DNA of 32,000 nucleotides from Candidatus Regiella endosymbiont of Tuberolachnus salignus (GTDB taxonomy: Bacteria > Pseudomonadota > Gammaproteobacteria > Enterobacterales > Enterobacteriaceae): NCBI RefSeq assembly GCF_964020115.1, contig NZ_OZ026542.1, positions 1,845,436 through 1,877,435 on the forward strand, given 5' to 3'. The position numbers and the translations under genes were made by a program. Positions 3,477 through 32,000 of this stretch are shown in pieces (position 1 is the stretch's first letter; every line of letters starts with the position of its first letter). Below the pieces are notes generated by a model. It made no database searches. It was given only the letters and a program-made list of their open reading frames with translations, and was not told the DNA's origin.

Positions 3477-3582
3477 TATAACCACATCAGTCTAATTTGA
3501 TTTTATGTTGTCGTCGCCTGCCGTACTATTTGTACTGTCTGTGCTCCTCCGCCTTGAATCAAATTAGACTGATGCGGCTATA
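3477..3582. mobile_element. MITE family B copy B1
   Basis: About 26-bp terminal inverted repeats (tataaccacatcagtctaatttgatt / aatcaaattagactgatgcggctata) and the family core ccgtactatttgtactgtctg. Shares its terminal TA with A1. Confidence 0.85.
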
Positions 3583-3695
3583 TACCCTTCGCCTTTGATG
3601 TTGGCTGCGAGCCTTCGCCCTCATGGTATGTCGACGCTCATCGAGTCTCACGCCCTGCCTGGCAGCCGAAGGCAACTTCAAAGACAAAGGGTATA
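3581..3695. mobile_element. ERIC-like MITE family A copy A1
   Basis: Termini tatacccttcgcctttgatg ... cttcaaagacaaagggtata; the interior matches the other A copies. Confidence 0.85.
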
Positions 3696-3767: not shown

Positions 3768-5132
3768 TTAATTTTCTTGTAATTCTAGTTTTTTTTCCAA
3801 ATAGTGGATATTGGTACTCCCTTTCTGAAAGCATTCATCATCCATAATTTGTTGATGCAATTCAATATTAGTTTTGATTCCATCAATAATCAGCTCCGTC
3901 AATGCATGCTTCATACGTGCAATCGCCGCTTCACGATTTTCACCATAAGTAATCAGTTTTCCAATCATCGAATCATAATAGGGTGGCACAGTGTAATTGG
4001 TATAAATATGCGATTCCCAGCGTACACCAAACCCTCCTGGGGCATGGAACCGCGTAATTTTTCCAGGGCTAGGTAGGAAAGTTTTTGCGTCTTCCGCGTT
4101 AATACGACATTCAATCGCATGGCCACGAACTACCACATCGTCTTGTTGAATAGAAAGTCGTTGACCTGCCGCAATCCGCAGCTGTTCTTTGATCAGATCA
4201 ATACCCGTTATCATCTCGGTGACGGGATGTTCAACCTGAATACGTGTATTCATCTCAATAAAATAAAATTCACCATTCTCATACAGAAATTCAAAGGTAC
4301 CGGCGCCACGGTAGCCAATATCAATGCAGGCTTTGACACAGCATTCACCGATATTAGACCGAATATCATTGCTAAGACCAGGGGCGGGGGCTTCTTCCAC
4401 CACTTTTTGATGACGGCGCTGCATTGAACAGTCACGTTCAGCGAGATAAAGCGCATTACCTTTACCATCGGCTAAGATTTGAATTTCGATATGGCGAGGA
4501 TTTTCAAGATATTTTTCCATATAAACCGTATCGTTATTAAAAGCAGCTTTAGCCTCTGTTCGGGTCATATCGATAGCTTTTTCTAAATCTTTAGCATCAT
4601 GAACTACCCGCATACCTCGTCCCCCCCCTCCCCCGGAGGCTTTAATAAGAACCGGATAGCCTATTTTTTTTGCCACCGCCTGATTTTTTTTGGCATCATT
4701 GCCTAATGAACCGTCAGATCCAGGTACACAAGGAACCCCTGCTTTTTTCATGGCGTTGATGGCGGAAACTTTATCGCCCATTAAGCGAATCGTTTCTGCT
4801 GTTGGGCCAATAAAAATAAATCCTGAATGCTCTACTTGTTCGGCAAAATCTGCATTTTCAGACAAAAAACCATATCCCGGATGAATAGCAGTGGCACCGG
4901 TTATTTCTGCTGCTGCAATAATGGCAGGAATATTCAAATAGCTTTTAACCGAAGGCGCGGAGCCAATGCATACTGTTTCGTCCGCCAATAAAACATGTTT
5001 TAGATCACGATCCGCCGTAGAGTGAACTGCCACCGTTTTTATCCCGAGTTCTTTACAAGCTCGCAATATCCGTAAAGCAATTTCTCCCCGGTTAGCGATA
5101 ATAATTTTTTCAATCATAGGGTTATCAAGCAT
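3768..5132 (-). CDS. accC: biotin carboxylase subunit of acetyl-CoA carboxylase
   Basis: ATG 5132 ([21 protein letters not shown]) has GAGG 5 nt upstream and lies 10 nt after the accB stop. Long near-identical blocks to E. coli AccC ([24 protein letters not shown]). Confidence 0.95.
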
Positions 5133-6177: not shown

Positions 6178-6324
6178 CTAAAAGCCTGTTCCAAATCTTC
6201 TTGAGCGACGCTGAATTGAGAAAAAATGAGCGAAAAAGCGCAGTTTACATAAGGAAAATGAGCATTTTGAGCTCATATTTGACGAAGTATCAGCGAGCAC
6301 AAGAGATTCCAAACAGTCTCTAAG
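6178..6324. mobile_element. MITE family C copy C1 (147 bp)
   Basis: ctaaaagcctgttccaaatcttcttgagcgacg ... cagcgagcacaagagattccaaacagtctctaag. It is a long imperfect palindrome and aligns along its whole length with C2 and C3. Confidence 0.85.
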
Positions 6325-6440
6325 ACTGCCATGGCAGCCAGAAGTAAAGTTCAGCATTATAACGATATCGTAGCAATTAGCAGCTAAATACTGCTTTTAT
6401 CCTCGAAGATATTTTATCCCGCGCAATAAAGTTTGTTTTT

Positions 6441-6620: not shown

Positions 6621-6733
6621 GGTGGCTCTGTTGGTTCTCTCGCAGTACTAACTTGTGAATTCGGTCAGATCCGGAAGGAAGCAGCCGTAGCAGGCGATGT
6701 ATGTGCCGGGATGTAGCTTTCAGAGCCACCACC
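6621..6733 (+). ncRNA. ffs: 4.5S RNA (SRP RNA)
   Basis: 113 nt align by eye to E. coli 4.5S RNA: GGTGGCTCTGTTGGTTCTC...GGTCAGATCCGGAAGGAAGCAGCC...GTGCCGGGATGTAGC...AGAGCCACCACC. The 5' and 3' ends are complementary. Confidence 0.9.
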
Positions 6734-9104: not shown

Positions 9105-9211
9105 TATAGCCGAATCAGTTTAATTTGATTCAAGGCGGAGGAGCACAGACAGTACAAATAGTACGGCAAGCGACGACAACACTTAAATCAAGTTAAAATG
9201 ATTTGGCTATA
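9105..9211. mobile_element. MITE family B copy B3
   Basis: tatagccgaatcagtttaatttgattcaaggcggagg...cagtacaaatagtacggcaagcgacgacaac...aaaatgatttggctata. It starts 1 nt after the aspC stop. Confidence 0.85.
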
Positions 9212-9230
9212 GCTGATTAATAGGTACTCT

Positions 9231-9812
9231 ATGAGAATAATCACGCTAATAGCGGTATTAGCTGTGGTTACCATTGGATTAGGTGGTGCTCTCTTTCTAG
9301 CGGGAGGGCGCCTCAATACGAGCAACAGTATGCCGTTGGGTTTGTATTGGATAACTGACAAGCCAATGACAAAAGGCGAATATGTTATTTTTTGCCCCCC
9401 ATTACAAGCCGCATTTAAAGAAGCAAAGCGGCGCGGTTATATTGGTTTCGGTTTATGCCCTGGTAACTATAGTTATATGATGAAAAAAATTGTCGCTCTC
9501 CAAGGTGACAACATTGCGATTACCGCTCAGGGTGTTAGCGTGAACGATACCTTGCTGCCTCATACCACCCCTTTGCCAACCGACAGAGCTGGGCAACCGT
9601 TACCACAAATCAGCATAGCATCTTATACCTTAAGTGAATCCGAATTATTACTCATGACGGAGCAAAGCCCTACTTCATTTGATTCACGTTATTTTGGACC
9701 TGTTAATAAAACCCAAGTTGTCTCTGTTATACGCCCCGTATTAACGTCTTCAACCTATTGGGGTCAATGGTTTTTAAAAAGATATAATCAATTAAAAAAT
9801 TATACCCAATGA
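9231..9812 (+). CDS. conjugative-transfer signal peptidase TraF-like (S26 family), orphan
   Basis: Collinear by eye with IncP (RP4) TraF: RLNTSNSMPLGLYW (catalytic Ser region), FCPP, RGYIGFGLCPGNYSYMMKKIVAL (Lys region), SFDSRYFGPV, VIRPVL. It has a tail of about 20 aa with no RP4 counterpart. The last 3 codons and the stop lie in repeat E1. Confidence 0.8.
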   Translation: MRIITLIAVLAVVTIGLGGALFLAGGRLNTSNSMPLGLYWITDKPMTKGEYVIFCPPLQAAFKEAKRRGYIGFGLCPGNYSYMMKKIVALQGDNIAITAQGVSVNDTLLPHTTPLPTDRAGQPLPQISIASYTLSESELLLMTEQSPTSFDSRYFGPVNKTQVVSVIRPVLTSSTYWGQWFLKRYNQLKNYTQ

Positions 9813-9927
9813 ATTTCGAGTTACGGCAAGGCGGCAATCAAGCGAATCCCAGGAGTATACAAGTAGTACATGACTGGGATGAGAGTGTGCAGCCAACGCC
9901 GCCGTAACTTGAAAGGCGAAGGGTATA
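9801..9927. mobile_element. ERIC-like MITE family E copy E1 (127 bp)
   Basis: The central core gaatcccaggagtatacaagtagtacatgactgggatgag resembles the ERIC core GTGAATCCCCAGGAGCTTACATAAGTAAGTGACTGGGGTGAGCG. Termini are tatacccaatgaatttcgag ... cttgaaaggcgaagggtata. Confidence 0.85.
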
Positions 9928-9941
9928 TAAGGAAATAAGAG

Positions 9942-10781
9942 ATGAATAGTAGTCAACACGTTTATTCAAAACATCTTGGTCAAAAATCACAGTATATAGA
10001 TACATACAACGAAAAATTATTAGTAGCCATACCTCGGTCAGCAGGAAGAAAAGAAATAGGCTTAATCGATGAACAAATACCCTTCACTGGATTTGATTTG
10101 TGGACGGCATATGAACTTTCTTGGTTGAATAAAAAAGGAAAACCGCAGGTTGCTATGGCGGAGTTTACTGTACCCGCCACATCCCCAAATTTGATTGAAT
10201 CCAAATCACTCAAACTTTATTTAAATAGTCTAAACCAATCCCATCTCGATTCTTCAGAGGTTCACCAACATATCTCAAAAGACCTCTCTCACATCGCTGA
10301 AGCTGAAGTGAAAGTGACACTATTTGAGGGGATGAAAAATTACAGCAAAAAAATTGATGAGCCTGACTACATTAGCATTGATGAAAGCGATATAGAGGTC
10401 AATGACTATAAATTTAATGCTGATCATTTAAAAAATGCAGTGACAGAAAAATCACCTTTTGTTACTGAGCGCCTGACGTCAAATCTTTTAAAATCTAATT
10501 GTTTAGTCACCCTGCAACCTGACTGGGCCAGTGTTTTTATAAAATATGAAGGCAAAAAAATAGATAGAGAAAAGTTGCTTCGATATATTATCTCGTTCCG
10601 AAAACATAATGAATTTCATGAGCAATGTGTAGAAAGGATATTTTTAGATATAAAAAAATATTGTCATCCACAAAAATTAACGGTTTTTGCCAGATATACA
10701 CGTCGAGGAGGATTAGATATTAATCCCTTTAGAAGCGATTACGAATCGACATCAGCCATAGGGCGATTAGTCAGACAATAA
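9942..10781 (+). CDS. queF: NADPH-dependent 7-cyano-7-deazaguanine reductase (two-domain type)
   Basis: 279 aa are collinear with E. coli QueF: LIESKSLKLYLNS, LLKSNCLVTLQPDW, REKLLRYIISFRKHNEFHEQCVERIF, ARYTRRGGLDINP, RLVRQ-stop. Confidence 0.95.
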   Translation: MNSSQHVYSKHLGQKSQYIDTYNEKLLVAIPRSAGRKEIGLIDEQIPFTGFDLWTAYELSWLNKKGKPQVAMAEFTVPATSPNLIESKSLKLYLNSLNQSHLDSSEVHQHISKDLSHIAEAEVKVTLFEGMKNYSKKIDEPDYISIDESDIEVNDYKFNADHLKNAVTEKSPFVTERLTSNLLKSNCLVTLQPDWASVFIKYEGKKIDREKLLRYIISFRKHNEFHEQCVERIFLDIKKYCHPQKLTVFARYTRRGGLDINPFRSDYESTSAIGRLVRQ

Positions 10782-10830
10782 GTGACTGCTCCCCGCCCTA
10801 TTGGACAACAGTTTACAGCGAATTTTGCTA
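10782..10830. repeat. repeat family F copy F1
   Basis: gtgactgctccccgccc...cgaattttgcta. The 17-mer gtgactgctccccgccc recurs at 18596 and, reverse-complemented, at 27661-27677. Confidence 0.6.
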
Positions 10831-10974
10831 AGAGCCTATTCGAAATCTTCTTGAGCGACGCTCAATTGAGGAAAAAATGGGCGAAAAAGCGCAGTTTACA
10901 TACAGTAAATGAGCATTTTGAGCCCGTTTTTGACGAAGTATCAGCGAGCACAAGAGATTTCGAGCAGGTGCTAA
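10828..10974. mobile_element. MITE family C copy C2 (147 bp)
   Basis: ctaagagcctattcgaaatcttcttgagcgacgctcaattgagg...gtatcagcgagcacaagagatttcgagcaggtgctaa. Its terminal cta (10971-10973) is the stop codon of the truncated gppA. Confidence 0.9.
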
Positions 10975-11876
10975 CACAGCATCTCGTACAACAGCCCCTC
11001 CCGCAGCCCTCCTCCTGAAAGACCCATACTTTCGATATTTAATTCCTGAAAAATAGCGATCAAAATCGACAAACCACTGGGAAAAACACCGGTACGCTCT
11101 AACGTCAATCCTGCAATATCCAGATTCTCTATATTGCCGCAGACAATCGCTTTTTGTTTCAATTGCTGTAACCTTTCTAAGGTGATCAATTCGTCCATCC
11201 CTTGATTGATCATAATTTCTTGCAATCGTTGAACAATACCAGAAGTCCCAACGCAAATTTGCCAACCATGGTGACGAAAATTCACGCCAACTGGCTGAAT
11301 AATTTCTCGCGCACTTTGTTCAGCTTGAGCAAAATTTTGGGTTGATAGCACAGCATCGTGAAAATAACGATCCAGCCAAGTAACGCAACCCATGGGCAGA
11401 CTGACTAGAATATTGGCTTGTGTCCCAATGCCCGCAATCAGTTCGGTACTGCCTCCCCCAATATCAACCACTAAACGCTTTTCCGACCCTATGGTATTTT
11501 GTGCCATTCCCTGATAAATGAGTCGTGCTTCTTCCTCACCACTAATCACCTCGATAGAACAATTTAGAATATCACGTGCTCTGGCCAAAAATAGATCCGC
11601 ATTAGATGCTAACCTTAATGCCGCAGTTGCAACCACACGGATCTGATGACGAGGAATATTTTGTAAAGAGGTAGCAAATAATGTTAAGCATTGCCAACCT
11701 CGTTCTAGTGACGCTTGCGATAAGCAATTTTTAGCATCTAGACCTGCTGCTAAGCGTACTTTTTGCTTAATACGGGTTAATGGTTGAAAACTGCCAGCTA
11801 CCTTACGTACTACCAACATATGAAAACTATTGGATCCCAGGTCGATAACAGCATGGTCTGAGGTAGCATTGGACAT
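10971..11876 (-). pseudogene. gppA: guanosine pentaphosphate phosphohydrolase, 3'-truncated (N-terminal Ppx/GppA domains only, 301 aa)
   Basis: Aligns with E. coli GppA residues 1 to about 300 ([56 protein letters not shown]). E. coli GppA is 494 aa. The frame ends in MITE C2, and queF follows immediately. Confidence 0.8.
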
Positions 11877-15581: not shown

Positions 15582-15745
15582 CTTAAGAGCCTGTTCCAAA
15601 TCTTTTTGAGCGATGCTCAAACGAGGAAAAAACAGGCGAAAAGGCGCAGTTGCCTTTTTTGTACAAAGCAAGGTAGTAAATGAGCATTTTAAGCTCGTTT
15701 TTGATGAAGTATCAGCGAGCACAAGATATTTTGAACAGGCTCTCA
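15582..15745. mobile_element. MITE family C copy C3 (164 bp)
   Basis: cttaagagcctgttccaaatctttttgagcgatgctcaaacgagg...gtatcagcgagcacaagatattttgaacaggctctca. Confidence 0.85.
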
Positions 15746-16018
15746 AAAAAGAGGTTAAGCGATTAGCTAAAAACAAGGCATGATTTACTATAATGTTTTT
15801 GATTCATAATCAATTATTTTATTTTTAAAAGCGTTTTTTGAAAGCGAGCTAAAGCAATACTCCGTATAAAGTCACTTTGTATTTATATGTAAACATGAGT
15901 AAGGGTTGTGGTGGTGTTTTGATATTTATTTTTACAAATTGAATATAAAAATTAACACTATATTTTCAACCCAATTAAATAACTACTAGCTCCTATAATC
16001 ACAACAGAGAACGTTAAA

Positions 16019-16411
16019 ATGTCATCATCTTTTACTGTGCAAAACGATCCTTTACAGGAGGATACAATAATAAAAATCACACCAGGGACAGAAGATCTTC
16101 CTATTTCAGGTGAAAATAAACAACCTATATCTTGTTTTTGTAGCACTGAAAAAACAGCCGATAGTGATAATAAAGAAAAGGAAGTACTGCTTGACGCTTT
16201 AAACGATCCGCCAACTTTACGCGCGCCTAATCTGGTTATTTCGAAAACCTTCTCAAGTTTGGATAGATATTTCACTAAACTTTTTCATGCTTCAGCTGCA
16301 ACAGATAATAATTCTGCTTCCATCAATCAGTCGATCCACAATATTTTAGACAGATTTAGCGCCAGAAAACTAACTGCAGAAGATATTCACAGGGTCTTTA
16401 GCACACTTTAA
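16019..16411 (+). CDS. hypothetical protein (130 aa, orphan, in AT-rich DNA)
   Basis: Longest ORF in an AT-rich, repeat-free stretch; only a weak SD. I recognise no similarity. No TM segment or signal peptide is apparent, and the N-terminus is Ser/Thr/Pro-rich. Confidence 0.4.
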   Translation: MSSSFTVQNDPLQEDTIIKITPGTEDLPISGENKQPISCFCSTEKTADSDNKEKEVLLDALNDPPTLRAPNLVISKTFSSLDRYFTKLFHASAATDNNSASINQSIHNILDRFSARKLTAEDIHRVFSTL

Positions 16412-16502: not shown

Positions 16503-17669
16503 CTACAACTTATCGAGTTGCTCTAAAATTTCATATCCCGCTTTTACTCTTTGATCGATGGGATAAGATTTGTTGGCCAATATCACAACGCCTCTTTTTT
16601 TGCTCGGCACAAAAGCGATGTAATTGGCAAAACCATTGGTTGAGCCTGTTTTATTGATCAACACATCTGCGGTTGGCCGTAAATTAGAGATGATGCGAGT
16701 AGTAGGTGTATCTTTAAGAAGTGCGGCATTTCCTTTAAATAATTCTTTAATGTCAGTTGGATAATGATATTGCTCCCACATTAAATTTTGTGTTATCCCC
16801 TCTGCTTTGAAATAAACGAGATGCGTGTTATCTATCGCATCCTGAAGTTTTTGATTAACGGTTATTTCGTTCATATTAGCTTGAATATAGCGAACGAGAT
16901 CATGGGTGCAGGATTTCAAACCATAGGCTTCAGATGACAACACAGCAGGTTTCATCCGAATCGGAGAGCCTGTCTGTGTGTAACCTTGCGCGTAATCCTT
17001 CATTTTATCCGCTGGAACATCAATATAGGTGTGAGTCATTCCAAGTGGTGTCAATATTATATTTTTCAGCAAACTATCATAAGAGCCCTGCAAACTTTTA
17101 GCCGTTACTATGCCAAGCAGACCAATGCCTAGATTGGAATAAACTCGATATGTACCAATGGGGTAAGGAGGTTGCCATTGCTTAAAATAGTCCATTAGTT
17201 CATCTTTATTCTTAATATTTTCAGGAACAAACAACGGCAGGCCTGATGTGTGCGTAGCCAAATTTAATAAACTAATTTTATCAAACGCGGTCTTTGCAAG
17301 ATCAGGCAGGTGTTCACTGGCATGATCTGAAAGCGAAAGTTTATTACTGACCGCGGCATAAGAAGCCAATATTGCAGTAAAGGTCTTACTGATTGAACCT
17401 ATTTCAAAAAGCGTTTGATTGGTTATAGGCGCAGCTGCTTCTTTTGACATGACACCATAGTTGTAAAAATAATGATTACCATCCAGGGTGACAGCAACCG
17501 CCATGCCGGGGATGTTATATTCTTGTATTAATGGCTGAACGGTATCATTGACAATCTTATCGATCCTAGCTTGATAAATATTTTCCGCAGCATAATTGCG
17601 AGTAGCCATCAAACTTAGACAAAAAAACATCAATGATTGCAATACCTTCTTGATAAACACATAGCGCAT
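16503..17669 (-). CDS. ampC: class C beta-lactamase
   Basis: Signal peptide, then the class C motifs S-x-S-K (GSISKTF), Y-S-N (RVYSNLGIG) and K-T-G (NKTGSTNGF). Collinear with E. coli AmpC (PGMAVAV, LFELGS, LATHTSG). Confidence 0.9.
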   Translation of the reverse strand: MRYVFIKKVLQSLMFFCLSLMATRNYAAENIYQARIDKIVNDTVQPLIQEYNIPGMAVAVTLDGNHYFYNYGVMSKEAAAPITNQTLFEIGSISKTFTAILASYAAVSNKLSLSDHASEHLPDLAKTAFDKISLLNLATHTSGLPLFVPENIKNKDELMDYFKQWQPPYPIGTYRVYSNLGIGLLGIVTAKSLQGSYDSLLKNIILTPLGMTHTYIDVPADKMKDYAQGYTQTGSPIRMKPAVLSSEAYGLKSCTHDLVRYIQANMNEITVNQKLQDAIDNTHLVYFKAEGITQNLMWEQYHYPTDIKELFKGNAALLKDTPTTRIISNLRPTADVLINKTGSTNGFANYIAFVPSKKRGVVILANKSYPIDQRVKAGYEILEQLDKL

Positions 17670-18438: not shown

Positions 18439-18489
18439 AAAAGCTCCTGTTTAGAAATAGATGATCGTTGTAAAGTTAATTGCATTTAT

Positions 18490-18569
18490 CTAAGAGCCTG
18501 TTCGAAATATCTTGTGCTCACTGATACTTCGTCAAATATGAGCTTAAAAAGATTTCGAGCAGGCTCTAA
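18490..18569. mobile_element. MITE family C deletion derivative C5 (80 bp)
   Basis: ctaagagcctgttcgaaatatcttgtgctcactgatacttcgtcaaatatgagcttaaaaagatttcgagcaggctctaa; both termini are kept and the core is deleted. Confidence 0.8.
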
Positions 18570-18595
18570 CAAATACTCAATGTTGATGTGATGTT

Positions 18596-21128: not shown

Positions 21129-21338
21129 CTAAGAGACTATACCCAATGAATTTCGAGTTACGGCAAGGCGGCAATCAATCGAATCCCAGGAGTGTACAAA
21201 TAGTACATGACGGGGATGAGAGCCAGCAGCCAACAACGCGGCGGCTTCAAAGGCGAGGGGTATACAAAAGTAAATGCGCATTTTGAGCGCGTTTTTGATG
21301 AAATATCAACGAGCACAAGAGATTTTGAATAGGCTCTA
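21129..21338. mobile_element. composite: MITE family C copy C7 with its left part replaced by E2
   Basis: ctaagagac[E2]caaaagtaaatgcgcattttgagcgcgtttttgatgaaatatcaacgagcacaagagattttgaataggctctaa. Confidence 0.7.
21138..21262. mobile_element. ERIC-like MITE family E copy E2
   Basis: tatacccaatgaatttcgagttacggcaaggcggcaatcaatcgaatcccaggagtgtacaaatagtacatgacggggatgag...cttcaaaggcgaggggtata. Confidence 0.85.
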
Positions 21339-21483
21339 AAATAAATTGAGTTCAAGAAAATACCGCTTTAGATTGCTTTTTGCACCGAAGTCAGTAGAAT
21401 TTTGAAACTTTTTACGTGTAGCAGGTTCCGTCTCCACGCGAGATCTGATTGTTTTGTTAATTTGTTAATTGAAAGAGGATGTT

Positions 21484-23721: not shown

Positions 23722-24020
23722 TTAAGAGCCTATTCAAAATCTTCTTAAGCGACACTCAATTGATAAAAAAACGGGCGAAAAAGCGCAGTTGCCTTTTGTT
23801 ACAAAAACAAGAAGGTAAATGAACATTTTGAGCCCGTTTTTGACAAAAGACTTTCTTGCAAAACCGTAGCGAGGGGTGTGAAGTCAAGGCACAGGGTACG
23901 CAGCAACCGCAGTGTACATATGCTAGTACATGAGGATTGCGAGCACCGCGCAACGCAGAATTCACACCACGCAGTAGGTTATGCAAGCAGTCTAAAGTAT
24001 CAGCGAGCATAAGAAATTTC
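23722..24020. mobile_element. MITE family C copy C8 carrying nested D1
   Basis: ttaagagcctattcaaaatcttcttaagcgacactcaattgat...gagcccgtttttgacaaa[D1]aaagtatcagcgagcataagaaatttc. The right terminus is truncated at the tusD stop. Confidence 0.75.
23848..23993. mobile_element. MITE family D copy D1, nested in C8
   Basis: Termini agactttcttgcaaaaccgtagcg ... cgcagtaggttatgcaagcagtct are inverted repeats. Flanked by AAA/AAA where intact C copies read gacGAAgtatcag. Confidence 0.7.
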
Positions 24021-24661: not shown

Positions 24662-24766
24662 ATAGCCGAATCAGTTTAATTTGATTCTATGTTGTCGTCG
24701 CTTGCCGTACTATTTGTACTGTCTGCGCTCCTCCGCCTTGAATCAAATTAAACTGATTCGGCTATA
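24662..24766. mobile_element. MITE family B copy B7 (nested)
   Basis: atagccgaatcagtttaatttgattc...ccgtactatttgtactgtctgcgctcctccgccttgaatcaaattaaactgattcggctata. Confidence 0.85.
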
Positions 24767-24841
24767 TGTGATTCAGACGAGCACCCGCAGCCAACAAAGC
24801 TGCAAACTTCCAAAGGCGAAGAGGATAGACTTGTTGCACGG

Positions 24842-25732: not shown

Positions 25733-25772
25733 TTATTTCTCCAATAGATTAATTCTTTCTTCAGCAACAGTT

Positions 25773-25911
25773 TTAAGAGCCTATTCGAAATCCCTTGTGC
25801 TCGCTGATACTTTACGAAAATAGGGCTTAAATACTCGTTTACTTCGTGTAAACTGTGCTTTTGTTCATCTTTCCCTGAGCTCAGCTTAAAAAAATTTCGA
25901 ATAGACGCTAA
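25773..25911. mobile_element. MITE family C copy C9, in the divergent fkpA/slyX promoter region
   Basis: ttaagagcctattcgaaatcccttgtgctcgctgatactttacg...cttaaaaaaatttcgaatagacgctaa. Confidence 0.8.
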
Positions 25912-25987
25912 CAGATATAACACCACTTCAGGTTAAAATAATAGCGATCAATTATGCGTAATGATTCTCCACCGGCAGGAAAATATC

Positions 25988-26261: not shown

Positions 26262-26491
26262 TATACCCAATGAATTTCGAGTTACGGCAAGGCGGTATCC
26301 CAGGAGTGTACAGGTAGTACATGACAGGGATAAATGATCGCTGCCAACGCCGCTGTATAGCCGAATCAGTCTAATTTGATTCAAGGCGGAGGCGCACAAA
26401 CAGTACAAATAGTACAAATAGTACGGTAAGCGACGACAACGCAGAATCAAATTAGACTGATTCGGCTATAACTTGAAAGGCAAAGGGTATA
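26262..26491. mobile_element. ERIC-like MITE family E copy E3 (internally deleted) carrying nested B5
   Basis: tatacccaatgaatttcgagttacggcaaggcgg-tatcccaggagtgtacaggtagtacatgacaggg...gccaacgccgctg-TA[B5]TA-acttgaaaggcaaagggtata. Confidence 0.85.
26356..26470. mobile_element. MITE family B copy B5 nested in E3, flanked by duplicated TA
   Basis: TA-tagccgaatcagtctaatttgattcaagg...cagtacaaatagtacaaatagtacgg...gaatcaaattagactgattcggcta-TA. It contains a 9-bp tandem duplication (acaaatagt) absent from other copies. Confidence 0.9.
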
Positions 26492-27270: not shown

Positions 27271-27375
27271 TATAGCCGAATCAGTTTAATTTGATTCAAG
27301 GCGAGGAGCGTAGACAGTACAAATAGTACGGCAAGTGACGACAACACTTAAATCAAATTAAACTGATTCGGCTAT
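27271..27375. mobile_element. MITE family B copy B6
   Basis: tatagccgaatcagtttaatttgattcaaggcgaggagcgtagacagtacaaatagtacggcaagtgacgacaac...aaattaaactgattcggctat. Confidence 0.85.
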
Positions 27376-27620
27376 GGCACTGTTAACAAAGTTAAATTAT
27401 TGAATAAAAAAGAATTTATAAAAATATTTAGGACGCATAAAATAATGATGAGATAAAAATAATACTTTTTGTGATCGGCTTCATCATTGAGAGAATTCGC
27501 CGATCGCTGCCATAAAAAATCGATTCATCTGTTTTTTTTAAAGAGGAACCGTTTACTTTGAATGCATTTAAATTATAATAATTTCAATAAGTTAAATGAA
27601 TACACTTTGTTAACAGTGCC
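27376..27620. mobile_element. 245-bp AT-rich element with perfect 17-bp terminal inverted repeats (family G, single copy here)
   Basis: ggcactgttaacaaagt (27376-27392) is the exact reverse complement of actttgttaacagtgcc (27604-27620). The interior has no ORF longer than 10 codons. It sits between a B terminus and an A terminus. Confidence 0.65.
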
Positions 27621-27677
27621 ATATTTCCTTCGCCTTTGAAGTGGGAAGCCTCGTCCCATAGGGCGGGGAGCAGTCAC
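27621..27677. repeat. family A left terminus fused to family F copy F3
   Basis: atatttccttcgcctttgaagtgg (A terminus) followed by gaagcctcgtcccatagggcggggagcagtcac (reverse complement of gtgactgctccccgccctatggg). Confidence 0.6.
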
Positions 27678-28301
27678 TGAGTGAATTTATATAACGTAAA
27701 GTTATTTTTATCAGCCGGACGTTGTCCAACCCAAATCGGGATCCAGTGATCAGCTTGTATTTTTTCAGGATGGTGCACATTATCTTGAACTAGCAAAAAT
27801 AGGCAACGTTGGGCGTTTTTATTGAGTGTCACCCCATCACCTTCACCTGAGTGGCCTTCATAGATTTTTATCGCCACTTTACCTGTCACATAATGCAACA
27901 TACTCTGTTCGGACTCTCCAAGGCCACTGGTTGCAAGACATTCACTATTCTGAATAAAAGGAGCAAGTGTTAGGAAAGTGTCTTGATAGCTGCGTGCGGC
28001 GTTGATCCAAGGCATCAATAGTAAAAATGTGATAGACCAGGTTACAGCTAACCCCGAGGCCCATGACAGCAACATCGAATGGTTATCCGATTTTTTAATA
28101 ATAATTAACCATAAAATGATAATAATCATGGCTAATGTAAATAGATACCATTTCGTTTGTAAGGCAAAGGGCAAGGGTAATACATTATCAATGTCAGACC
28201 ACAATACTTGCAGTAACCGTGCCTCACCATCCATAACAAGATTAAACCAAGTCAATACTATTATTAACAGTGTGATACCGAAAAAAATGTTCATTACCTT
28301 A

Positions 28302-29163
28302 TATAGTGTCGTCATGAGATCTTGAGCCATAGAGCAAGGCATCGTATTTGTACAGCAGCGAGAAAAGAGGAGGTATTTTTTGCATAACGAGTAGCAATAC
28401 CTCGCCAGCGCTTTAGGTGCAGAAAAGCATTTTCCACGAGATGTCGATGCTTGTAGAGCGCTTTATCGTACTCACGTTGAATTTTACGATTCTTTTTAGG
28501 TGGTATTACGATTTGCATGCCGGCTTCTTCTGCTTTTTTAATGATGTTATCACTGTCATAGCCCTTGTCAGCCAACAGATATTCTGCTGCAATACCTTTG
28601 GTTAAATTCGTTGCTTGCTGACAATCTGCTGTGGTACCTGATGTAATAAAAATTCTGACCGGCATACCATGCGCATCCACGGCCAGATGTATCTTACTGT
28701 TGAGCCCCCTTTTGTGCGCTCCATATCCTGATTACCGCCTTTTGCGCCTGCTGCATGAGGGTGAACTTTGCTATGAGTGGCATCAATCATCAGCCATTCA
28801 AAATCTGGCTCCACAATCAGCGCTTCGAGCAGAGACTCCCATAGCCCCTTGTCACGCCAGCGGCAAAACCGGCGATGAGTATTTTTCCAACCGCCATAAT
28901 CAGGCGGTAAATCACGCCAGGGAGCGCCGGTTCTCAATATCCAGAAAACAGCATTAATAAACTGCCTGTTATCTCTGGCTATGCCACCCCAAGTGCCTTT
29001 TCTCCCCGGGAGATGAGCTTCCAATAGGCTCCAAACATGATCGGATATATCGTGGCGGCGATGGGCTAAATTCATTCCCGAATCATCTTTCATTATTGAA
29101 TCATCTCAACAGTTGTCGTTATTTGTTACATGATAATATATTTTTTATTACGTGACGACACTA
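28302..29163 (-). mobile_element. IS5-family insertion sequence (IS427/IS1031-like), about 862 bp
   Basis: Terminal inverted repeats tagtgtcgtcatg (28304-) and cgtgacgacacta (-29163). CTTA occurs on both sides (28298-28301 and 29164-29167), giving a candidate 4-bp target duplication. Confidence 0.8.
28312..29093 (-). CDS. IS5-family DDE transposase in two frames (candidate -1 frameshift)
   Basis: The N-terminus HRRHDISDHVWSLLEAHLPGRKGTWGGIARDNRQFINAVFWILRTGAPWRDLP is typical of the IS5/IS427 group. DDE contexts are LMIDATH, LLADKGYDSD and HLVENAFLHLKRWRGIATRY. The frames join as ...ERTK/RGLNSKIHLAVDAHGMPV at ACAAAAGGGGG (28705-28715). Confidence 0.8.
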
Positions 29164-29351
29164 CTTAGAGCCTGTCTTGTCTAAGCTATGTAATAAAGGA
29201 ATGAATGGCACTGTTAGTAAAGCCAAGGGTGGGTACAATGGCAGCAGATAAATATCTCGCATTGAAGCTGATGAGAAGAGTGAAAAGAAGCCAGTGGTAA
29301 AAAAGAGCAAAACGATGGCATATGCTGATAATTGTGGCCTGAATATCATTT

Positions 29352-29476
29352 TATACCCTTCGCCTTTGAAGCCGCCGCGTTGTTGGCTGCGAGTGTTCGC
29401 CTCATCAGGTAGTCTATCTACGCTCATCGGTCGGTCGCCCTGGCGGCCGAAGGCACCTTCAAGGACTGTGGGTATA
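29352..29476. mobile_element. ERIC-like MITE family A copy A8, in frame inside the glycosyltransferase-like gene
   Basis: TA-tacccttcgcctttgaagccgccgcgttgttggctgcgag...gaaggcaccttcaaggactgtgggta-TA. It adds exactly 41 codons between F and K of ...SFVF|KMIF.... Confidence 0.9.
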
Positions 29477-29934
29477 AACACGAAGCTATGATGTTTTATT
29501 TTGTACGATATCCAACGGATAAAAGCAAAAATGGCACCTATCACAAATAAAATGGATGTTGGCGCACCGTTAACCAGTATTGCGATTATCTTTTCGCTAT
29601 AGTTTTTGTTATAGACGCCGAGCGGGGCATCAGACAATCCTATAAAACGACCAATATTATTTAGCCAAAACCATTCATGAAAAAGTTCTGCTGAGTGGTG
29701 ATACAAGGCTAATGGCCACAATATGACGAAAGGTAAAACACCGATAAAAGCCGTGAGGTAGAATCTTAGCTTAGTGTGATTGCGAAAATCCTGAAAGAGA
29801 ATCAAGCAAAGTAATAATGTTAATCCAGCAATACCAGGGACGAACAATCCTTTTGATAAAAAAGCGATACCAATGCCAGCGCCGAATAAAAAACCACTGA
29901 TAACTTGCCTGGTTTTCACCTCTTTTGAAGCATT

Positions 29935-30062
29935 AGACTTCTTTCGAAACCGTAGTTCGTTATGCGAAGTCAAGGCACCCGGCGCACAGCAACCTTCGTT
30001 GCCTACAGTACATGAGGATTGCGCGCACCGGGCAACGCAGGATCCGGGTTTCGAAAGAGGTT
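29935..30062. mobile_element. MITE family D copy D3, in frame inside the glycosyltransferase-like gene
   Basis: agacttctttcgaaaccgtagttcg...cagtacatgaggattgcgcgcaccg...ccgggtttcgaaagaggttt. It is translated as ...SKPGSCVARCAQSSCTVGNEGCCAPGALTSHNELRFRK.... Boundaries are approximate. Confidence 0.7.
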
Positions 30063-30656
30063 TATTGCCAACTAGTGCTGCCAAAGCCAAAGTAGCCCCA
30101 GCAAGTTGAGCTATATCGGCAGTAAGTTTGTGAATGTGTTCGGTCAAACCAATGATGGCGACTAACAAGGTTATTGAATGCACACGATAAGAAATTGATG
30201 TGTGGGAAGGCGCTAGCGACAGTGATTGTCTGTCTATTTCGTCGAACAGACGCGATGCGATGAAACAAAATGCAGCTATTGTTACTGCCATAAAAAGTAC
30301 AATAGTCAGTCGCGATGATTCATGTGCGGGGATAAAAGGCAGTGCTTTAGCAAATATTGCGCCTATCCAAAATATGAGTGGAGATTTTTCTACAAAGGGA
30401 TCACCCGCGACATGCGGGATCAGCCATTGATTGTTAATGATGATGTTCCAAATAATGCCGAAGGAATAAGGCTCGTCTGCTTTCCAAGGGAATCGATCAA
30501 AAATACCGATTAAACCGTAAGCAAAAAATAAAACATAGATAAACCAAGTAGTAGGGATTTTTTTCAAAATCTGCCAGACTGGCAGAGAAGTCAATGAATA
30601 TTTTTTTATTGATTTTAACATAAGCTTGGTGTGTCCTACCCTCGTGGATCCTTGAA

Positions 30657-30780
30657 TATACCCTTCGTCTCTGAAGTTACCGCTAGGCAGCCAGAACGAC
30701 CGACCGATGAGCGTGGACATACCCCATGAGGGCGAGAGCTGGCAGCCAACAACGCGGCGACTCCAAAGGCGAAGGGTATA
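30657..30780. mobile_element. ERIC-like MITE family A copy A9, in the divergent promoter region of the glycosyltransferase-like gene and tilS
   Basis: tatacccttcgtctctgaagttaccgctaggcagcc...ggcagccaacaacgcggcgactccaaaggcgaagggtata. It lies 35 nt upstream of ATG 30621. Confidence 0.85.
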
Positions 30781-30863
30781 CTTCCTTGTGTTCATTAGAA
30801 GGATCTTCTAATAGACACTGAAAAAACTTCTAATAAGATATTTTTTATTTTATAACACTATCA

Positions 30864-32000
30864 ATGAATAAAAATGATGATCTTTTACTCCAGATTAACA
30901 AGCAGCTAGCGGGATATCGAGAGCTGCTAGTGGGTTTTAGTGGCGGACTGGATTCCAGTGTTTTGCTGCATCTACTGACTCGTCTACGCACTGGCCAACG
31001 GCCTGATCTGAGCATTCGAGCGATCCACATCCACCATGGAATCAACCCACAGGCAAACGATTGGGCAGAACATTGTCAATATCAATGTCAACAATGGCAA
31101 GTACCACTAGAAATTGTGTCGGTGCAACTGAATACACACAAAAATGGCATTGAAGCCGCTGCGCGCACAGCGCGTTATCACGCTTTTTCCACCCATCTCA
31201 CCGACAAAGAAGTGTTATTGACCGCTCAACATCAAGATGATCAATGTGAGACCTTTCTGCTGGCATTAAAACGGGGGAGTGGGCCAACGGGGTTGTCTGC
31301 CATGGCGTCAAAAATGGCTTTCGCGCAAAGTCAGTTACTCCGTCCTTTATTGAGCTGTTCCCGACAAAATTTAATGGACTATGCGCAACGGCATCAAATT
31401 CAGTGGGTAGAGGATGGGAGTAATCAAGATAGACGTTTTGATCGTAATTTTCTACGGCAAGAAATTATCCCTTTGCTCAATCAACGTTGGCCGCATTTTT
31501 CCCAAACGGTCACGCGCAGTGCTAGCCTTTGTGCAGAGCAAGAACAATTGCTTGATGAATTACTCACTGCCACATTAGATCAATGGCAGCATACTGATGG
31601 GTCTCTAGCGACTGACGGATTAATCACTATGTCAGAAGTGAAACGCAATGCGGTATTGCGGCGCTGGTTATCTCGCCACCATGTCAGCATGCCGTCTCGA
31701 GATCAGTTACAACGTTTATGGCATGAAGTTGTATTAGCGCGTATCGATGCCAATCCTTGTTTACAACTAGGGCAACATCAAGTACGGCGTTTTCGCCAGC
31801 GTCTCTATTTATCATCCTCGCAACAAATCAACATAACCCCCCAGTGTTTACACTGGTGTGTCAGTGAAGATCTATTACTTCCCGCTAACTTAGGGGTTCT
31901 GCGCCTGACTAATGCCGATGGACAACAAATTCGGGCAGCAAGGCCAGATGAAAGCGTGAAGATCCGTTTTGGCCTGCAAGGAAGGGTGAAAATTGTCGGG
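30864..32000 (+). CDS. tilS: tRNA(Ile)-lysidine synthase, 3' end beyond the window
   Basis: ATG 30864; MNKNDDLLLQINKQLAGYRELLVGFSGGLDSSVLLHLL (PP-loop SGGxDS), TAQHQDDQCETFLLALKRGSGP, FDRNFLR. Collinear with E. coli TilS and open to the window end (379 codons). Confidence 0.93.
   Translation, partial: MNKNDDLLLQINKQLAGYRELLVGFSGGLDSSVLLHLLTRLRTGQRPDLSIRAIHIHHGINPQANDWAEHCQYQCQQWQVPLEIVSVQLNTHKNGIEAAARTARYHAFSTHLTDKEVLLTAQHQDDQCETFLLALKRGSGPTGLSAMASKMAFAQSQLLRPLLSCSRQNLMDYAQRHQIQWVEDGSNQDRRFDRNFLRQEIIPLLNQRWPHFSQTVTRSASLCAEQEQLLDELLTATLDQWQHTDGSLATDGLITMSEVKRNAVLRRWLSRHHVSMPSRDQLQRLWHEVVLARIDANPCLQLGQHQVRRFRQRLYLSSSQQINITPQCLHWCVSEDLLLPANLGVLRLTNADGQQIRAARPDESVKIRFGLQGRVKIVG

What the first reader, a model, noticed from the sequence alone, without database searches (positions are those of the whole stretch)
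29164..30621. Two MITEs inserted stop-free and in frame inside a membrane glycosyltransferase-like gene
Seen in the sequence: the 544-codon minus-strand ORF reads straight through repeat copies. For A8 (29352-29476) the gene strand translates as ...HHSFVF[IPTVLEGAFGRQGDRPMSVDRLPDEANTRSQQRGGFKGEGY]KMIFRPQ.... Removing the element plus one TA restores GTG TTT AAA ATG, so the insertion is exactly 123 nt (41 codons) with no stop. D3 (about 29935-30062) adds ...SKPGSCVARCAQSSCTVGNEGCCAPGALTSHNELRFRK..., also without a stop. Hydrophobic membrane-protein-like sequence continues in the same frame on both sides, so its net length must also be a multiple of 3. Family A is open in at least one frame in each orientation: ...PPSGNFKDKGYI in one, ...SQQRGGFKGEGY in the other. 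Inference: frame-breaking insertions were a priori more likely. Two 3n, stop-free insertions therefore suggest the gene kept functioning with about 80 extra residues until the IS split it. This would parallel the palindromic elements known inside Rickettsia genes, here in an enterobacterial ERIC-like family.
Basis: partly seen in the sequence, partly recalled or inferred. Interest (0 to 1): 0.8.

Follow-up and report, generated by a model that had tools for sequence, protein, structure and literature searches.

The report
In-frame MITEs inside a symbiont gene
A membrane sugar-transferase gene of the aphid symbiont Regiella carries two small mobile elements that read through in frame as extra protein loops; one has been kept under selection in an intact copy of the gene in a sister strain, and the same element type sits in frame in several other Regiella genes, a known kind of event (as in Rickettsia) seen here in a new host.

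Summary
The window comes from Candidatus Regiella (symbiont of the aphid Tuberolachnus salignus). The minus-strand ORF is the 5' part of an ArnT-like GT-C glycosyltransferase gene. It holds a 123-nt ERIC-type insert (A8, 41 codons) and a 132-nt insert of a second MITE family (D3, 44 codons), and an 862-bp IS5-family element splits it.

An intact 652-codon allele in R. insecticola RINTU1 (locus L024) has exact empty sites for A8 and the IS but carries D3. With A8 and the IS removed, the window gene is 1959 nt, the same length as that allele.

D3 is therefore old, shared by three strains and tolerated: dN/dS is 0.18-0.39, significantly below 1. A8 is specific to the window lineage, and its order relative to the IS cannot be determined. 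Its 125-nt subfamily always adds 3n, and two of six frames are open, so about 1/3 of insertions would be stop-free by chance.

The same element, in the same frame (IPT...GY), sits in frame in tilS, an ArsC-family gene, hemD and cca of Regiella strains.

In-frame MITEs are already known (RPE; intragenic ERIC, Delihas 2007), so this is a new member of a known kind.

The parts
29164..30621 (-). 5' part of an ArnT-like (GT-C) glycosyltransferase gene. It has 486 codons including the two inserts. The ORF ends at a TAG (29161-29163) supplied by the IS.
   Evidence: NCBI WP_339056493.1. An AlphaFold model of the gene with the IS removed (693 aa, still carrying both A8 and D3) has pLDDT 85. The best Foldseek hit is ArnT 5F15, TM 0.71 normalised to the target.
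29352..29476 (-). A8: ERIC-type MITE, 125 nt including both copies of the TA target. The net insertion is 123 nt (41 codons), read as IPTVLEGAFGRQGDRPMSVDRLPDEANTRSQQRGGFKGEGY.
   Evidence: Family hits. Frames. Exact empty site in L024 and in 5.15/RINTU1 proteins. Collinear with E. coli ERIC. GC 58% against 39% for the host gene.
29932..30063 (-). D3: second MITE family. A 129-nt element with terminal inverted repeats (AAACCTCTTTCGAAACC) plus an AAT duplication, net 132 nt (44 codons), read as KPLSKPGSC...RFRKKSN.
   Evidence: Present in window, L001 and L024, and absent from orthologues outside Regiella. The RNA hairpin is -51 kcal/mol, z -4.4.
28302..29163 (-). IS5-family insertion sequence, 862 bp, with two overlapping transposase ORFs (28602-29093 and 28312-28680). 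Terminal repeats are TAGTGTCGTCA. The 4-bp target duplication CTTA lies at 28298-28301 and 29164-29167.
   Evidence: Pfam DUF4096 and DDE_Tnp_1. Boundaries. Empty site with a 4-nt overlap in L024.
27674..28301 (-). 3' part of the same gene (about 209 codons: the last TM helices plus a soluble C-terminal domain), intact to its native stop.
   Evidence: 97.4% identical and ungapped relative to L024.
30657..30780 (+). A9: ERIC-type copy in the 5' region between the gene and the divergent tilS. The 544-codon ORF reads through it, but it lies upstream of the true start. It is largely deleted in L001, L015 and L024.
30864..32000 (+). tilS (5' 1137 nt; runs off the window). The TA at 31133-31134 is the empty site where strains L001 and L024 carry a 123-nt in-frame ERIC-type insert.
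23838..23961 (-). Second, diverged (about 75% identical) copy of the D family, intergenic, next to tusD. It aligns to D3 in the same orientation as D3, i.e. on the gene strand.

Best explanation
The locus is a single ArnT-like GT-C membrane glycosyltransferase gene of Candidatus Regiella that was hit three times by mobile DNA.

Step 1 (shown). A D-family MITE inserted in a variable loop between two helices, duplicating AAT. This happened before the sampled Regiella strains diverged. It reads through in frame as about 44 hydrophilic, Cys-rich residues. The gene then stayed under purifying selection and is still intact in strain RINTU1.

Step 2 (shown as an event; timing inferred). In the window lineage only, an ERIC-type MITE of a 125-nt subfamily inserted at a TA in TTTAAA inside a Lys/Arg-rich loop. 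It adds 41 codons in the one hydrophilic open frame (IPT...GY).

Step 3 (shown). An 862-bp IS5-family element inserted with a 4-bp duplication and split the gene. This is the only disabling lesion.

Why the inserts are 3n and stop-free. It is partly built in: both master elements plus their duplications are multiples of three (123 and 144 nt), and each has an open frame. It is partly survivorship: only copies that land in that phase, in loops, leave the gene working (inferred). The inference rests on in-frame copies of the same element, in the same frame, in tilS, an ArsC-family gene, hemD and cca. Whether the enzyme worked with A8 as well as D3 is undecided; I put it at roughly even odds.
For: - Organism.
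- Gene family.
- Intact 652-aa allele with D3 but without A8 or the IS.
- Exact empty sites (TA, CTTA).
- Restored length of 1959 nt, equal to L024.
- dN/dS 0.18 (10 N / 17 S, P=2e-5) against L001. dN/dS 0.33-0.39 (P~1e-6) against L024. For comparison, tilS gives 0.10-0.13.
- Window branch 7 N: 10 S.
- Two D3 alleles differ by two separate 12-nt (3n) indels.
- Both inserts fall in alignment-variable loops and are the only long low-confidence stretches (pLDDT<50) in an otherwise confident model.
- In-frame 41-codon copies in tilS (L001, L024; absent from window, LSR1 and 5.15). The insert falls between E. coli TilS residues 83 and 89.
- ArsC-family gene, 164 vs 123 aa.
- hemD, 34 codons.
- cca fragment.
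- ERIC homology.
Against: - No allele with A8 but without the IS was found, so nothing shows the protein worked with A8.
- The gene is dispensable in this clade. It is cut independently in L001 by another repeated element, and the LSR1 and 5.15 proteins look frameshifted. A8 could therefore be a neutral hit.
- dN/dS of 0.33-0.39 is relaxed compared with tilS.
- In the segments 3' of the A8 site, dN/dS is not significantly below 1 (0.69 and 0.45), though the counts are small.
- The full-length D copy has an in-frame TGA in the frame used, so either the inserted copy differed or the frame was reopened later.
- No expression or protein data exist.
- The arsC and cca cases were found with an F1-frame peptide query, so the shared frame is partly ascertainment.
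Confidence: 0.85

Rival explanations
1. A8 is a neutral, post-mortem insertion. The IS (or general loss of need for the gene) inactivated it first, and A8 then landed in a dead gene and is stop-free and in frame by chance.
For: - A8 is seen only in the IS-bearing allele.
- Its 125-nt subfamily always adds 123 nt and has 2 of 6 frames open, so the chance is about 1/3.
- The gene is being lost independently in several strains.
- Segments around and after the A8 site show dN/dS of 0.45-0.69, not significantly below 1.
Against: - A8 uses exactly the frame and 41-codon form that is tolerated in tilS, arsC and hemD.
- It sits in a length-variable, Lys/Arg-rich loop.
- The window branch still shows a purifying pattern in the 5' part, 7 N: 10 S, so inactivation is recent.
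Confidence: 0.4
2. The whole gene was already a pseudogene in the Regiella ancestor, and the long ORF through both elements is luck.
For: Regiella is a pseudogene-rich facultative symbiont. IS and MITE density in the window is very high.
Against: - An intact 652-codon allele exists.
- dN/dS is significantly below 1 in three comparisons.
- There are no indels other than two 12-nt in-frame ones over 1959 nt at about 6% divergence.
Confidence: 0.03
3. The inserts are adaptive (exapted). The encoded peptides give the proteins a new property, and the open frame of the ERIC subfamily is maintained for that reason.
For: - The same peptide frame recurs in five unrelated genes.
- The arsC insert is conserved between two strains.
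- D3 shows 3 synonymous to 1 non-synonymous change.
Against: - Presence/absence polymorphism among close strains: tilS, arsC and the GT gene all have insert-free alleles.
- The inserts are predicted to be disordered.
- Most copies are intergenic, and the peptide matches found in the public protein sets searched are otherwise almost all ORFs under 100 aa; among those that carry a source name, nearly all are Regiella 'hypothetical proteins'.
- The counts are too small to show selection on the peptide.
Confidence: 0.05

Closest known systems
Rickettsia palindromic elements (RPE; Ogata et al. 2000, as summarised in PMC10969869)
   Same: Short palindromic mobile elements inserted in frame into many unrelated genes, including housekeeping genes, of a host-restricted bacterium. 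They add a hydrophilic peptide at surface or loop positions while the host gene stays functional.
   Different: There is no indication of sequence relatedness (not tested by alignment); the hosts are Gammaproteobacteria versus Alphaproteobacteria. The element here is an ERIC homologue with a TA duplication. Only five in-frame cases were found here against dozens for RPE. Most copies here are intergenic.
ERIC / RU-1 elements with open reading frames found intragenically (Delihas 2007, PMC2759123)
   Same: It is the same element family: the window copy 9801-9927 is collinear end to end with a 127-bp E. coli intergenic element that carries the ERIC core as I recall it from the ERIC1R/ERIC2 primers. 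A roughly 41-42-aa open frame was already noted, and fusions to annotated genes in Erwinia, Yersinia, Photorhabdus and Salmonella were described.
   Different: In the part of the Results I read, the Delihas cases are fusions at gene ends (3' in ECA3499, ECA0168 and YPO3245; 5' in PLU3667) or hypothetical ORFs. Here the inserts are internal, flanked by conserved sequence on both sides. They have exact empty-site alleles in sister strains, and for D3 there is evidence of selection. The Regiella subfamily has a diverged core.
Other bacterial MITEs giving in-frame gene fusions (Coxiella QMITE1, PMC5896051; Correia elements of Neisseria)
   Same: Non-autonomous elements with terminal inverted repeats that can be read through as part of host ORFs and that form RNA hairpins.
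   Different: They are different families with different target duplications. The Regiella case offers strain-level presence/absence for each insertion.
ArnT (4-amino-4-deoxy-L-arabinose transferase; PDB 5F15/5EZM), GT-C fold
   Same: The predicted fold matches (Foldseek E 1e-10, TM 0.71 normalised to the target). It has multi-pass membrane helices, an invariant acidic motif (D49 E50) after the first TM helix, and a C-terminal soluble domain.
   Different: Only 11-12% identity. There is no sequence-level PDB hit and no Pfam PMT_2/GT39/GT83 hit even without the inserts. It is about 80 residues longer than ArnT, and its substrate is unknown.

Membership tests
ERIC (enterobacterial repetitive intergenic consensus) elements | About 127-bp unit collinear with the E. 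coli ERIC sequence, including its central core | tested here: met
   Window 9801-9927 aligns over 1-127 at 73% identity to an unannotated 127-bp intergenic element present in 2075 of 5426 E. coli genomes. In the multiple alignment A8, the tilS insert and A9 share both ends and the 3' half with it, but their central core has diverged. That the E. coli element is ERIC rests on my memory of the ERIC1R/ERIC2 primer sequences.
ERIC (enterobacterial repetitive intergenic consensus) elements | Intergenic location | tested here: not met
   A8 is inside a CDS, as are the tilS, arsC and hemD copies. The other 10 window copies lie between complete genes. Intragenic ERIC copies are a published exception (PMC2759123).
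MITE (non-autonomous transposable element) | Terminal inverted repeats, target-site duplication, many copies, no transposase gene, presence/absence polymorphism at precise sites | tested here: met
   Family A: TATACCC...GGGTATA ends, TA duplication, at least 11 copies in 32 kb, and exact empty sites for A8 and for the tilS copy. Family D: 17-nt terminal repeats, AAT duplication at two independent sites, and copies in window, L015 and L016. No empty site was found for D3 within Regiella; orthologues outside the genus lack it.
[quoted passage not shown] | Recurrent in-frame, stop-free insertion in unrelated genes that remain functional | tested here: met
   The host genes are the GT gene (D3 under purifying selection), tilS (dN/dS 0.10-0.13 with the insert in L001/L024), the ArsC-family gene, hemD and cca. 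Function of the insert-bearing proteins is inferred from intact ORFs and dN/dS, not measured.
RPE family (sequence membership) | Sequence homology to one of the Rickettsia RPE families | not tested
   No RPE sequences were compared. The element is demonstrably an ERIC homologue, so membership is not expected.
ArnT / GT-C glycosyltransferases (GT83-like) | GT-C fold with an acidic motif in the first extracytoplasmic loop | tested here: met
   The AF2 model has pLDDT 85. Best PDB matches are ArnT 5F15/5EZM, followed by oligosaccharyltransferases. D49 and E50 are invariant in 51 homologues.
ArnT / GT-C glycosyltransferases (GT83-like) | Match to the Pfam PMT / PMT_2 (GT39/GT83) models | tested here: not met
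   There are no Pfam families for the ORF, for the insert-free reconstruction, for the intact allele or for orthologue P0002. A minority of distant homologues carry PF13231 or PF02366.
ArnT / GT-C glycosyltransferases (GT83-like) | Transfer of L-Ara4N to lipid A | not testable with these tools
   No arn operon context is present; the neighbours are tilS and engB.
IS5 family insertion sequence | DDE transposase (DDE_Tnp_1 with N-terminal DUF4096), terminal inverted repeats, short target duplication | tested here: met
   Pfam hits.

The most novel reading that the evidence does not exclude
Regiella has turned an ERIC subfamily into an enterobacterial counterpart of the Rickettsia palindromic elements. 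This would be a 'coding-compatible' MITE whose length plus duplication is a multiple of three and which has one hydrophilic open frame. It would colonise loops of many working genes, including the essential tilS. It would be recently active, given the strain-to-strain presence/absence. This would give a natural series of matched alleles with and without a 41-residue insertion.
Probability: 0.35. Interest if true: 0.6.

Novelty: new member of a known kind. Interest (0 to 1): 0.45.

Why it matters
The locus shows, with matched empty-site alleles, that 34-44-residue peptides encoded by mobile elements can be dropped into loops of a 14-helix membrane enzyme. The same holds for housekeeping enzymes (TilS, HemD, an ArsC-family protein), whose reading frames stay intact; for TilS and the glycosyltransferase, dN/dS shows continuing constraint.

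It extends the 'selfish DNA inside genes' pattern from Rickettsia to an ERIC-type element in an insect symbiont. It warns annotators that unusually long Regiella proteins may carry MITE peptides. It also offers natural pairs of alleles for testing how proteins tolerate insertions.

For the specific gene the outcome is ordinary: a dispensable envelope gene being lost to IS activity during symbiont genome decay.

Tried and rejected
- **Genome and metagenome scans.** Scans of genome contigs and metagenome contigs with the restored protein returned only relatives of 24-31% identity and no Regiella locus. The intact allele came from a cluster look-up instead.
- **Neighbouring contigs.** Contigs carrying tilS from LSR1, 5.15 and a Logan assembly break just upstream of tilS, so they do not cover the A8 or IS sites.
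- **Family assignment by sequence.** Pfam on the ORF with inserts, without inserts, and on the intact allele found nothing. A profile search of PDB sequences found nothing. The family call rests on fold and on names given by sources.
- **Peptide census.** The word-index search returned only 38-71-aa ORFs, nearly all named as Regiella hypothetical proteins. It missed TilS, which contains the query exactly, so it cannot serve as a census of long proteins. The exhaustive representative search found the arsC and cca cases. It hides inserts in clusters whose representative lacks them.
- **Alternative IS boundary.** A TA-duplication model for the IS would put the two gene halves out of frame and make the downstream ORF a separate, translationally coupled gene. 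I rejected this because the intact allele shows a 4-nt overlap and reads GSKVINIFF.
- **Compensatory deletion in A8.** I considered whether the 1-nt 'deletion' in A8 was compensatory after insertion. I rejected it because the same GCCTTCGG variant occurs in intergenic copies and in the arsC and hemD inserts, so it is a subfamily trait.
- **Membrane side of the loops.** Helix counting gave inconsistent parity. The positive-inside rule suggests cytoplasmic loops, but this is unresolved.
- **arsC locus in the window genome.** The look-up of P0343 was not on record. I used the RINTU1 copy instead.

Full report
**What is there**

The window is from Candidatus Regiella, the facultative endosymbiont of the aphid Tuberolachnus salignus. 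Six of seven window proteins occur exactly in that 3.29-Mb genome.

The minus-strand ORF at 29161-30795 exists. Its true start is the ATG at 30621, the start shared by all Regiella homologues. The upstream 58 codons only read through a further ERIC-type copy (A9, 30657-30780).

The product belongs to a family of 600-660-aa proteins that sources name 'ArnT family glycosyltransferase'. An AlphaFold model is confident (pLDDT 85), and its best PDB match is ArnT of Cupriavidus (5F15; E 1e-10, TM 0.71 normalised to the target). Pfam does not recognise the protein, with or without the inserts, and no PDB sequence matches it.

**The three insertions**

A8 (29352-29476) is one of at least 11 copies of a 95-128-nt family in the window. 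The family is a true ERIC homologue. Copy 9801-9927 aligns end to end with a 127-bp intergenic element found in 2075 E. coli genomes, and A8 shares both termini with it.

D3 (29932-30063) belongs to a second family. It has 17-nt terminal inverted repeats and an AAT duplication. A 94%-identical full-length copy (141 nt + AAT = 144 nt) sits at the 3' end of tilS in strain LSR1, and a diverged copy lies at window 23838-23961.

The IS (28302-29163) has DUF4096 and DDE ORFs and a CTTA duplication.

The inserts are 58% and 53% GC in a 39% GC gene. As RNA they fold into long hairpins.

**The decisive comparison**

A cluster look-up found a 652-aa intact allele in R. insecticola RINTU1 (GFN46101.1; locus L024).

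- Against the window it shows an exact empty site for A8 (2-nt TA overlap).
- It shows an exact empty site for the IS (4-nt overlap).
- It shows the presence of D3.

After removing A8 and the IS, the window gene is 1959 nt. That is the same length as L024, and the alignment is ungapped with no stop.

A third strain (metagenome contig L001, 96.7% identical) also has D3. There the gene is cut at window position ~29813 by a different repeated element. Protein fragments from strains 5.15 and LSR1 lack A8 and look frameshifted.

**Was the gene working with the inserts?**

For D3, yes, as far as sequence can show.

| Comparison | dN/dS | Detail |
|---|---|---|
| Window vs L001, first 809 nt | 0.18 | 10 N / 17 S; P=2e-5 against neutrality |
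| Window vs L024, whole gene | 0.39 | 0.33 without D3; P~1e-6 |
| tilS (for reference) | 0.10-0.13 | |
| Window branch alone | — | 7 N : 10 S, against a neutral expectation near 3:1 |

The two D3 alleles differ by two separate 12-nt indels, both multiples of three.

For A8 there is no such evidence. It is confined to the window lineage and is seen only together with the IS. Downstream of its site, dN/dS is not significantly below 1, on small counts.

**How surprising are 3n, stop-free inserts?**

Across 11 window copies, 19 of 66 frames are stop-free and 3 of 11 copies have a 3n net length.

A8, however, belongs to a 125-nt subfamily (the GCCTTCGG variant). This subfamily is also seen in intergenic copies and in the arsC and hemD inserts. 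Its net insertion is always 123 nt, and frames F1 and R2 are open. The chance of a harmless read-through is therefore about 1/3.

The D element plus its duplication is 144 nt. In the frame used, the full-length copy carries one TGA. The window allele lacks it because of a 12-nt deletion, and L024 has TTA instead. I cannot tell whether the inserted copy already lacked the stop.

**The wider pattern**

The same ERIC-type element, read in the same frame (IPT(V/A)...FKG(E/C)GY), is in frame in four other Regiella genes:

- **tilS.** 41 codons in L001 and RINTU1 (NCBI GFN46100.1, 486 aa). The insert is absent from the window, LSR1 and 5.15. It falls between residues 83 and 89 of E. coli TilS.
- **ArsC-family reductase.** 164 aa in the window genome and RINTU1, against 123 aa in 5.15, a difference of exactly 41 residues.
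- **hemD of RINTU1.** 34 codons. The HEM4 domain spans 262 residues for 229 profile positions.
- **cca fragment of a Regiella MAG.** 40 codons.

In about 95 kb of Regiella DNA examined, 4 of roughly 21 copies lie in genes, and all four are 3n and open. Among the window's ten intergenic copies, 2 have a 3n net length. None of those ten splits a recognisable gene.

Two caveats apply. Frame-breaking copies would turn genes into pseudogenes that this small survey would not count. The arsC and cca cases were found with an F1-frame peptide query.

**Where the inserts sit in the protein**

Both inserts lie in regions that vary in length and sequence among orthologues. They lie between confidently modelled helices and are the only long stretches with pLDDT below 50 (residues 187-230 and 383-423).

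The A8 loop is rich in Lys and Arg in all orthologues, which suggests a cytoplasmic loop. Helix counting did not give a consistent topology, so the side of the membrane is unresolved.

**Comparison with what is known**

In-frame MITEs are established. The Rickettsia palindromic elements and other cases are reviewed in PMC10969869, and ERIC (RU-1) open frames fused to annotated enterobacterial genes were described by Delihas (PMC2759123). In the part of that paper's Results that I read, the cases are fusions at gene ends or hypothetical ORFs.

The Regiella genome paper does not mention such repeats (PMC2955975), and no paper in the searchable library links Regiella with ERIC.

What is new here is the host, the internal position in conserved genes including tilS, and the matched empty-site alleles.

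**Verdict**

- The finding is a new member of a known kind and of moderate interest.

Noticed in passing
L001 5457-5581; L024 5481-5605; empty site at window 31133-31134: tilS carries a 123-nt in-frame ERIC-type insert in two Regiella strains (483 and 486 aa, annotated as normal TilS). The window, LSR1 and 5.15 lack it. tilS is an essential gene in E. coli (from my own knowledge, not tested here).
   Followed up: yes
L026 10001-10495 (element 10312-10436); proteins P0343, P0367, P0366: An ArsC-family (YffB-like) reductase upstream of a Peptidase_M20-family gene (probably dapE, judged from E. coli gene order) has an exact 41-aa ERIC-encoded insert in the window genome and in RINTU1, but not in strain 5.15.
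   Followed up: yes
L026 16034-16915 (element 16273-16376; partial copy 16888-16929): hemD of RINTU1 is 293 aa. It has a 34-codon in-frame, internally deleted ERIC copy, and its C-terminus runs into a second, partial ERIC copy.
   Followed up: partly
L015 1692-1835; L024 about 4414-4440; L001 about 4384-4404; L016 1256-1296: A D-family element sits at the 3' end of tilS. In LSR1 and RINTU1, two different 13-nt deletions fuse tilS into it, giving new C-termini (...KPLSKPTA and ...KPLSKPT). In L001 only a stump of the element remains after the native stop.
   Followed up: partly
L016 1-160: tilS of strain 5.15 lacks about 113 nt that encode the PP-loop (SGGxDS) region and is annotated from an internal start (367 aa). 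This is either a draft-assembly error or a pseudogene of an essential gene.
   Followed up: no
window 30657-30780 vs L001 5851-6101, L015 125-330, L024 5952-5954: The ERIC copy upstream of the gene (A9) is reduced to a 14-nt stump in the other strains. L001 and LSR1 carry a different ERIC variant at a TA about 50 nt away. This shows rapid element turnover in the tilS-GT intergenic region.
   Followed up: partly
window 10829-11876: gppA (10971-11876, minus strand) covers only positions 2-300 of a 496-position model. It ends beside a copy of a third repeat family (TAAGAGCCTRTTCGAAAT..., with copies near 6179-6329, 10829-10980, 15584-15750, 18484-18575, 21269-21345, 23722-23843 and 25767-25917). 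It is a likely truncated pseudogene.
   Followed up: no
window 3478-3583, 9105-9213, 24662-24767, 26356-26473, 27271-27377: A fourth repeat family of about 110 nt (TATAGCCGAATCAG...GGCTATA), often abutting ERIC copies. One copy lies between engB and the 3' end of the GT gene.
   Followed up: no
window 27613-27650: A partial ERIC end (TTCCTTCGCCTTTGAAG...) lies immediately downstream of the GT gene's stop codon. The gene therefore has ERIC-type sequence upstream, inside and downstream of it.
   Followed up: no
window 28298-28342: The 222-codon ORF at 27674-28342 starts inside the IS end. NCBI annotates a 206-aa protein from MNIFF... The IS could in principle drive or initiate expression of the orphan C-terminal fragment.
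   Followed up: no
window 6629-6725: Bacterial small SRP RNA (ffs), Rfam RF00169, 65 bits. It is the only Rfam match in the window.
   Followed up: no
window 9231-9812 and 16503-17669: A TraF-type conjugative signal peptidase gene stands alone between tyrB and queF. A full-length class C beta-lactamase (ampC) gene is also present. Both are unusual passengers in a symbiont chromosome.
   Followed up: no
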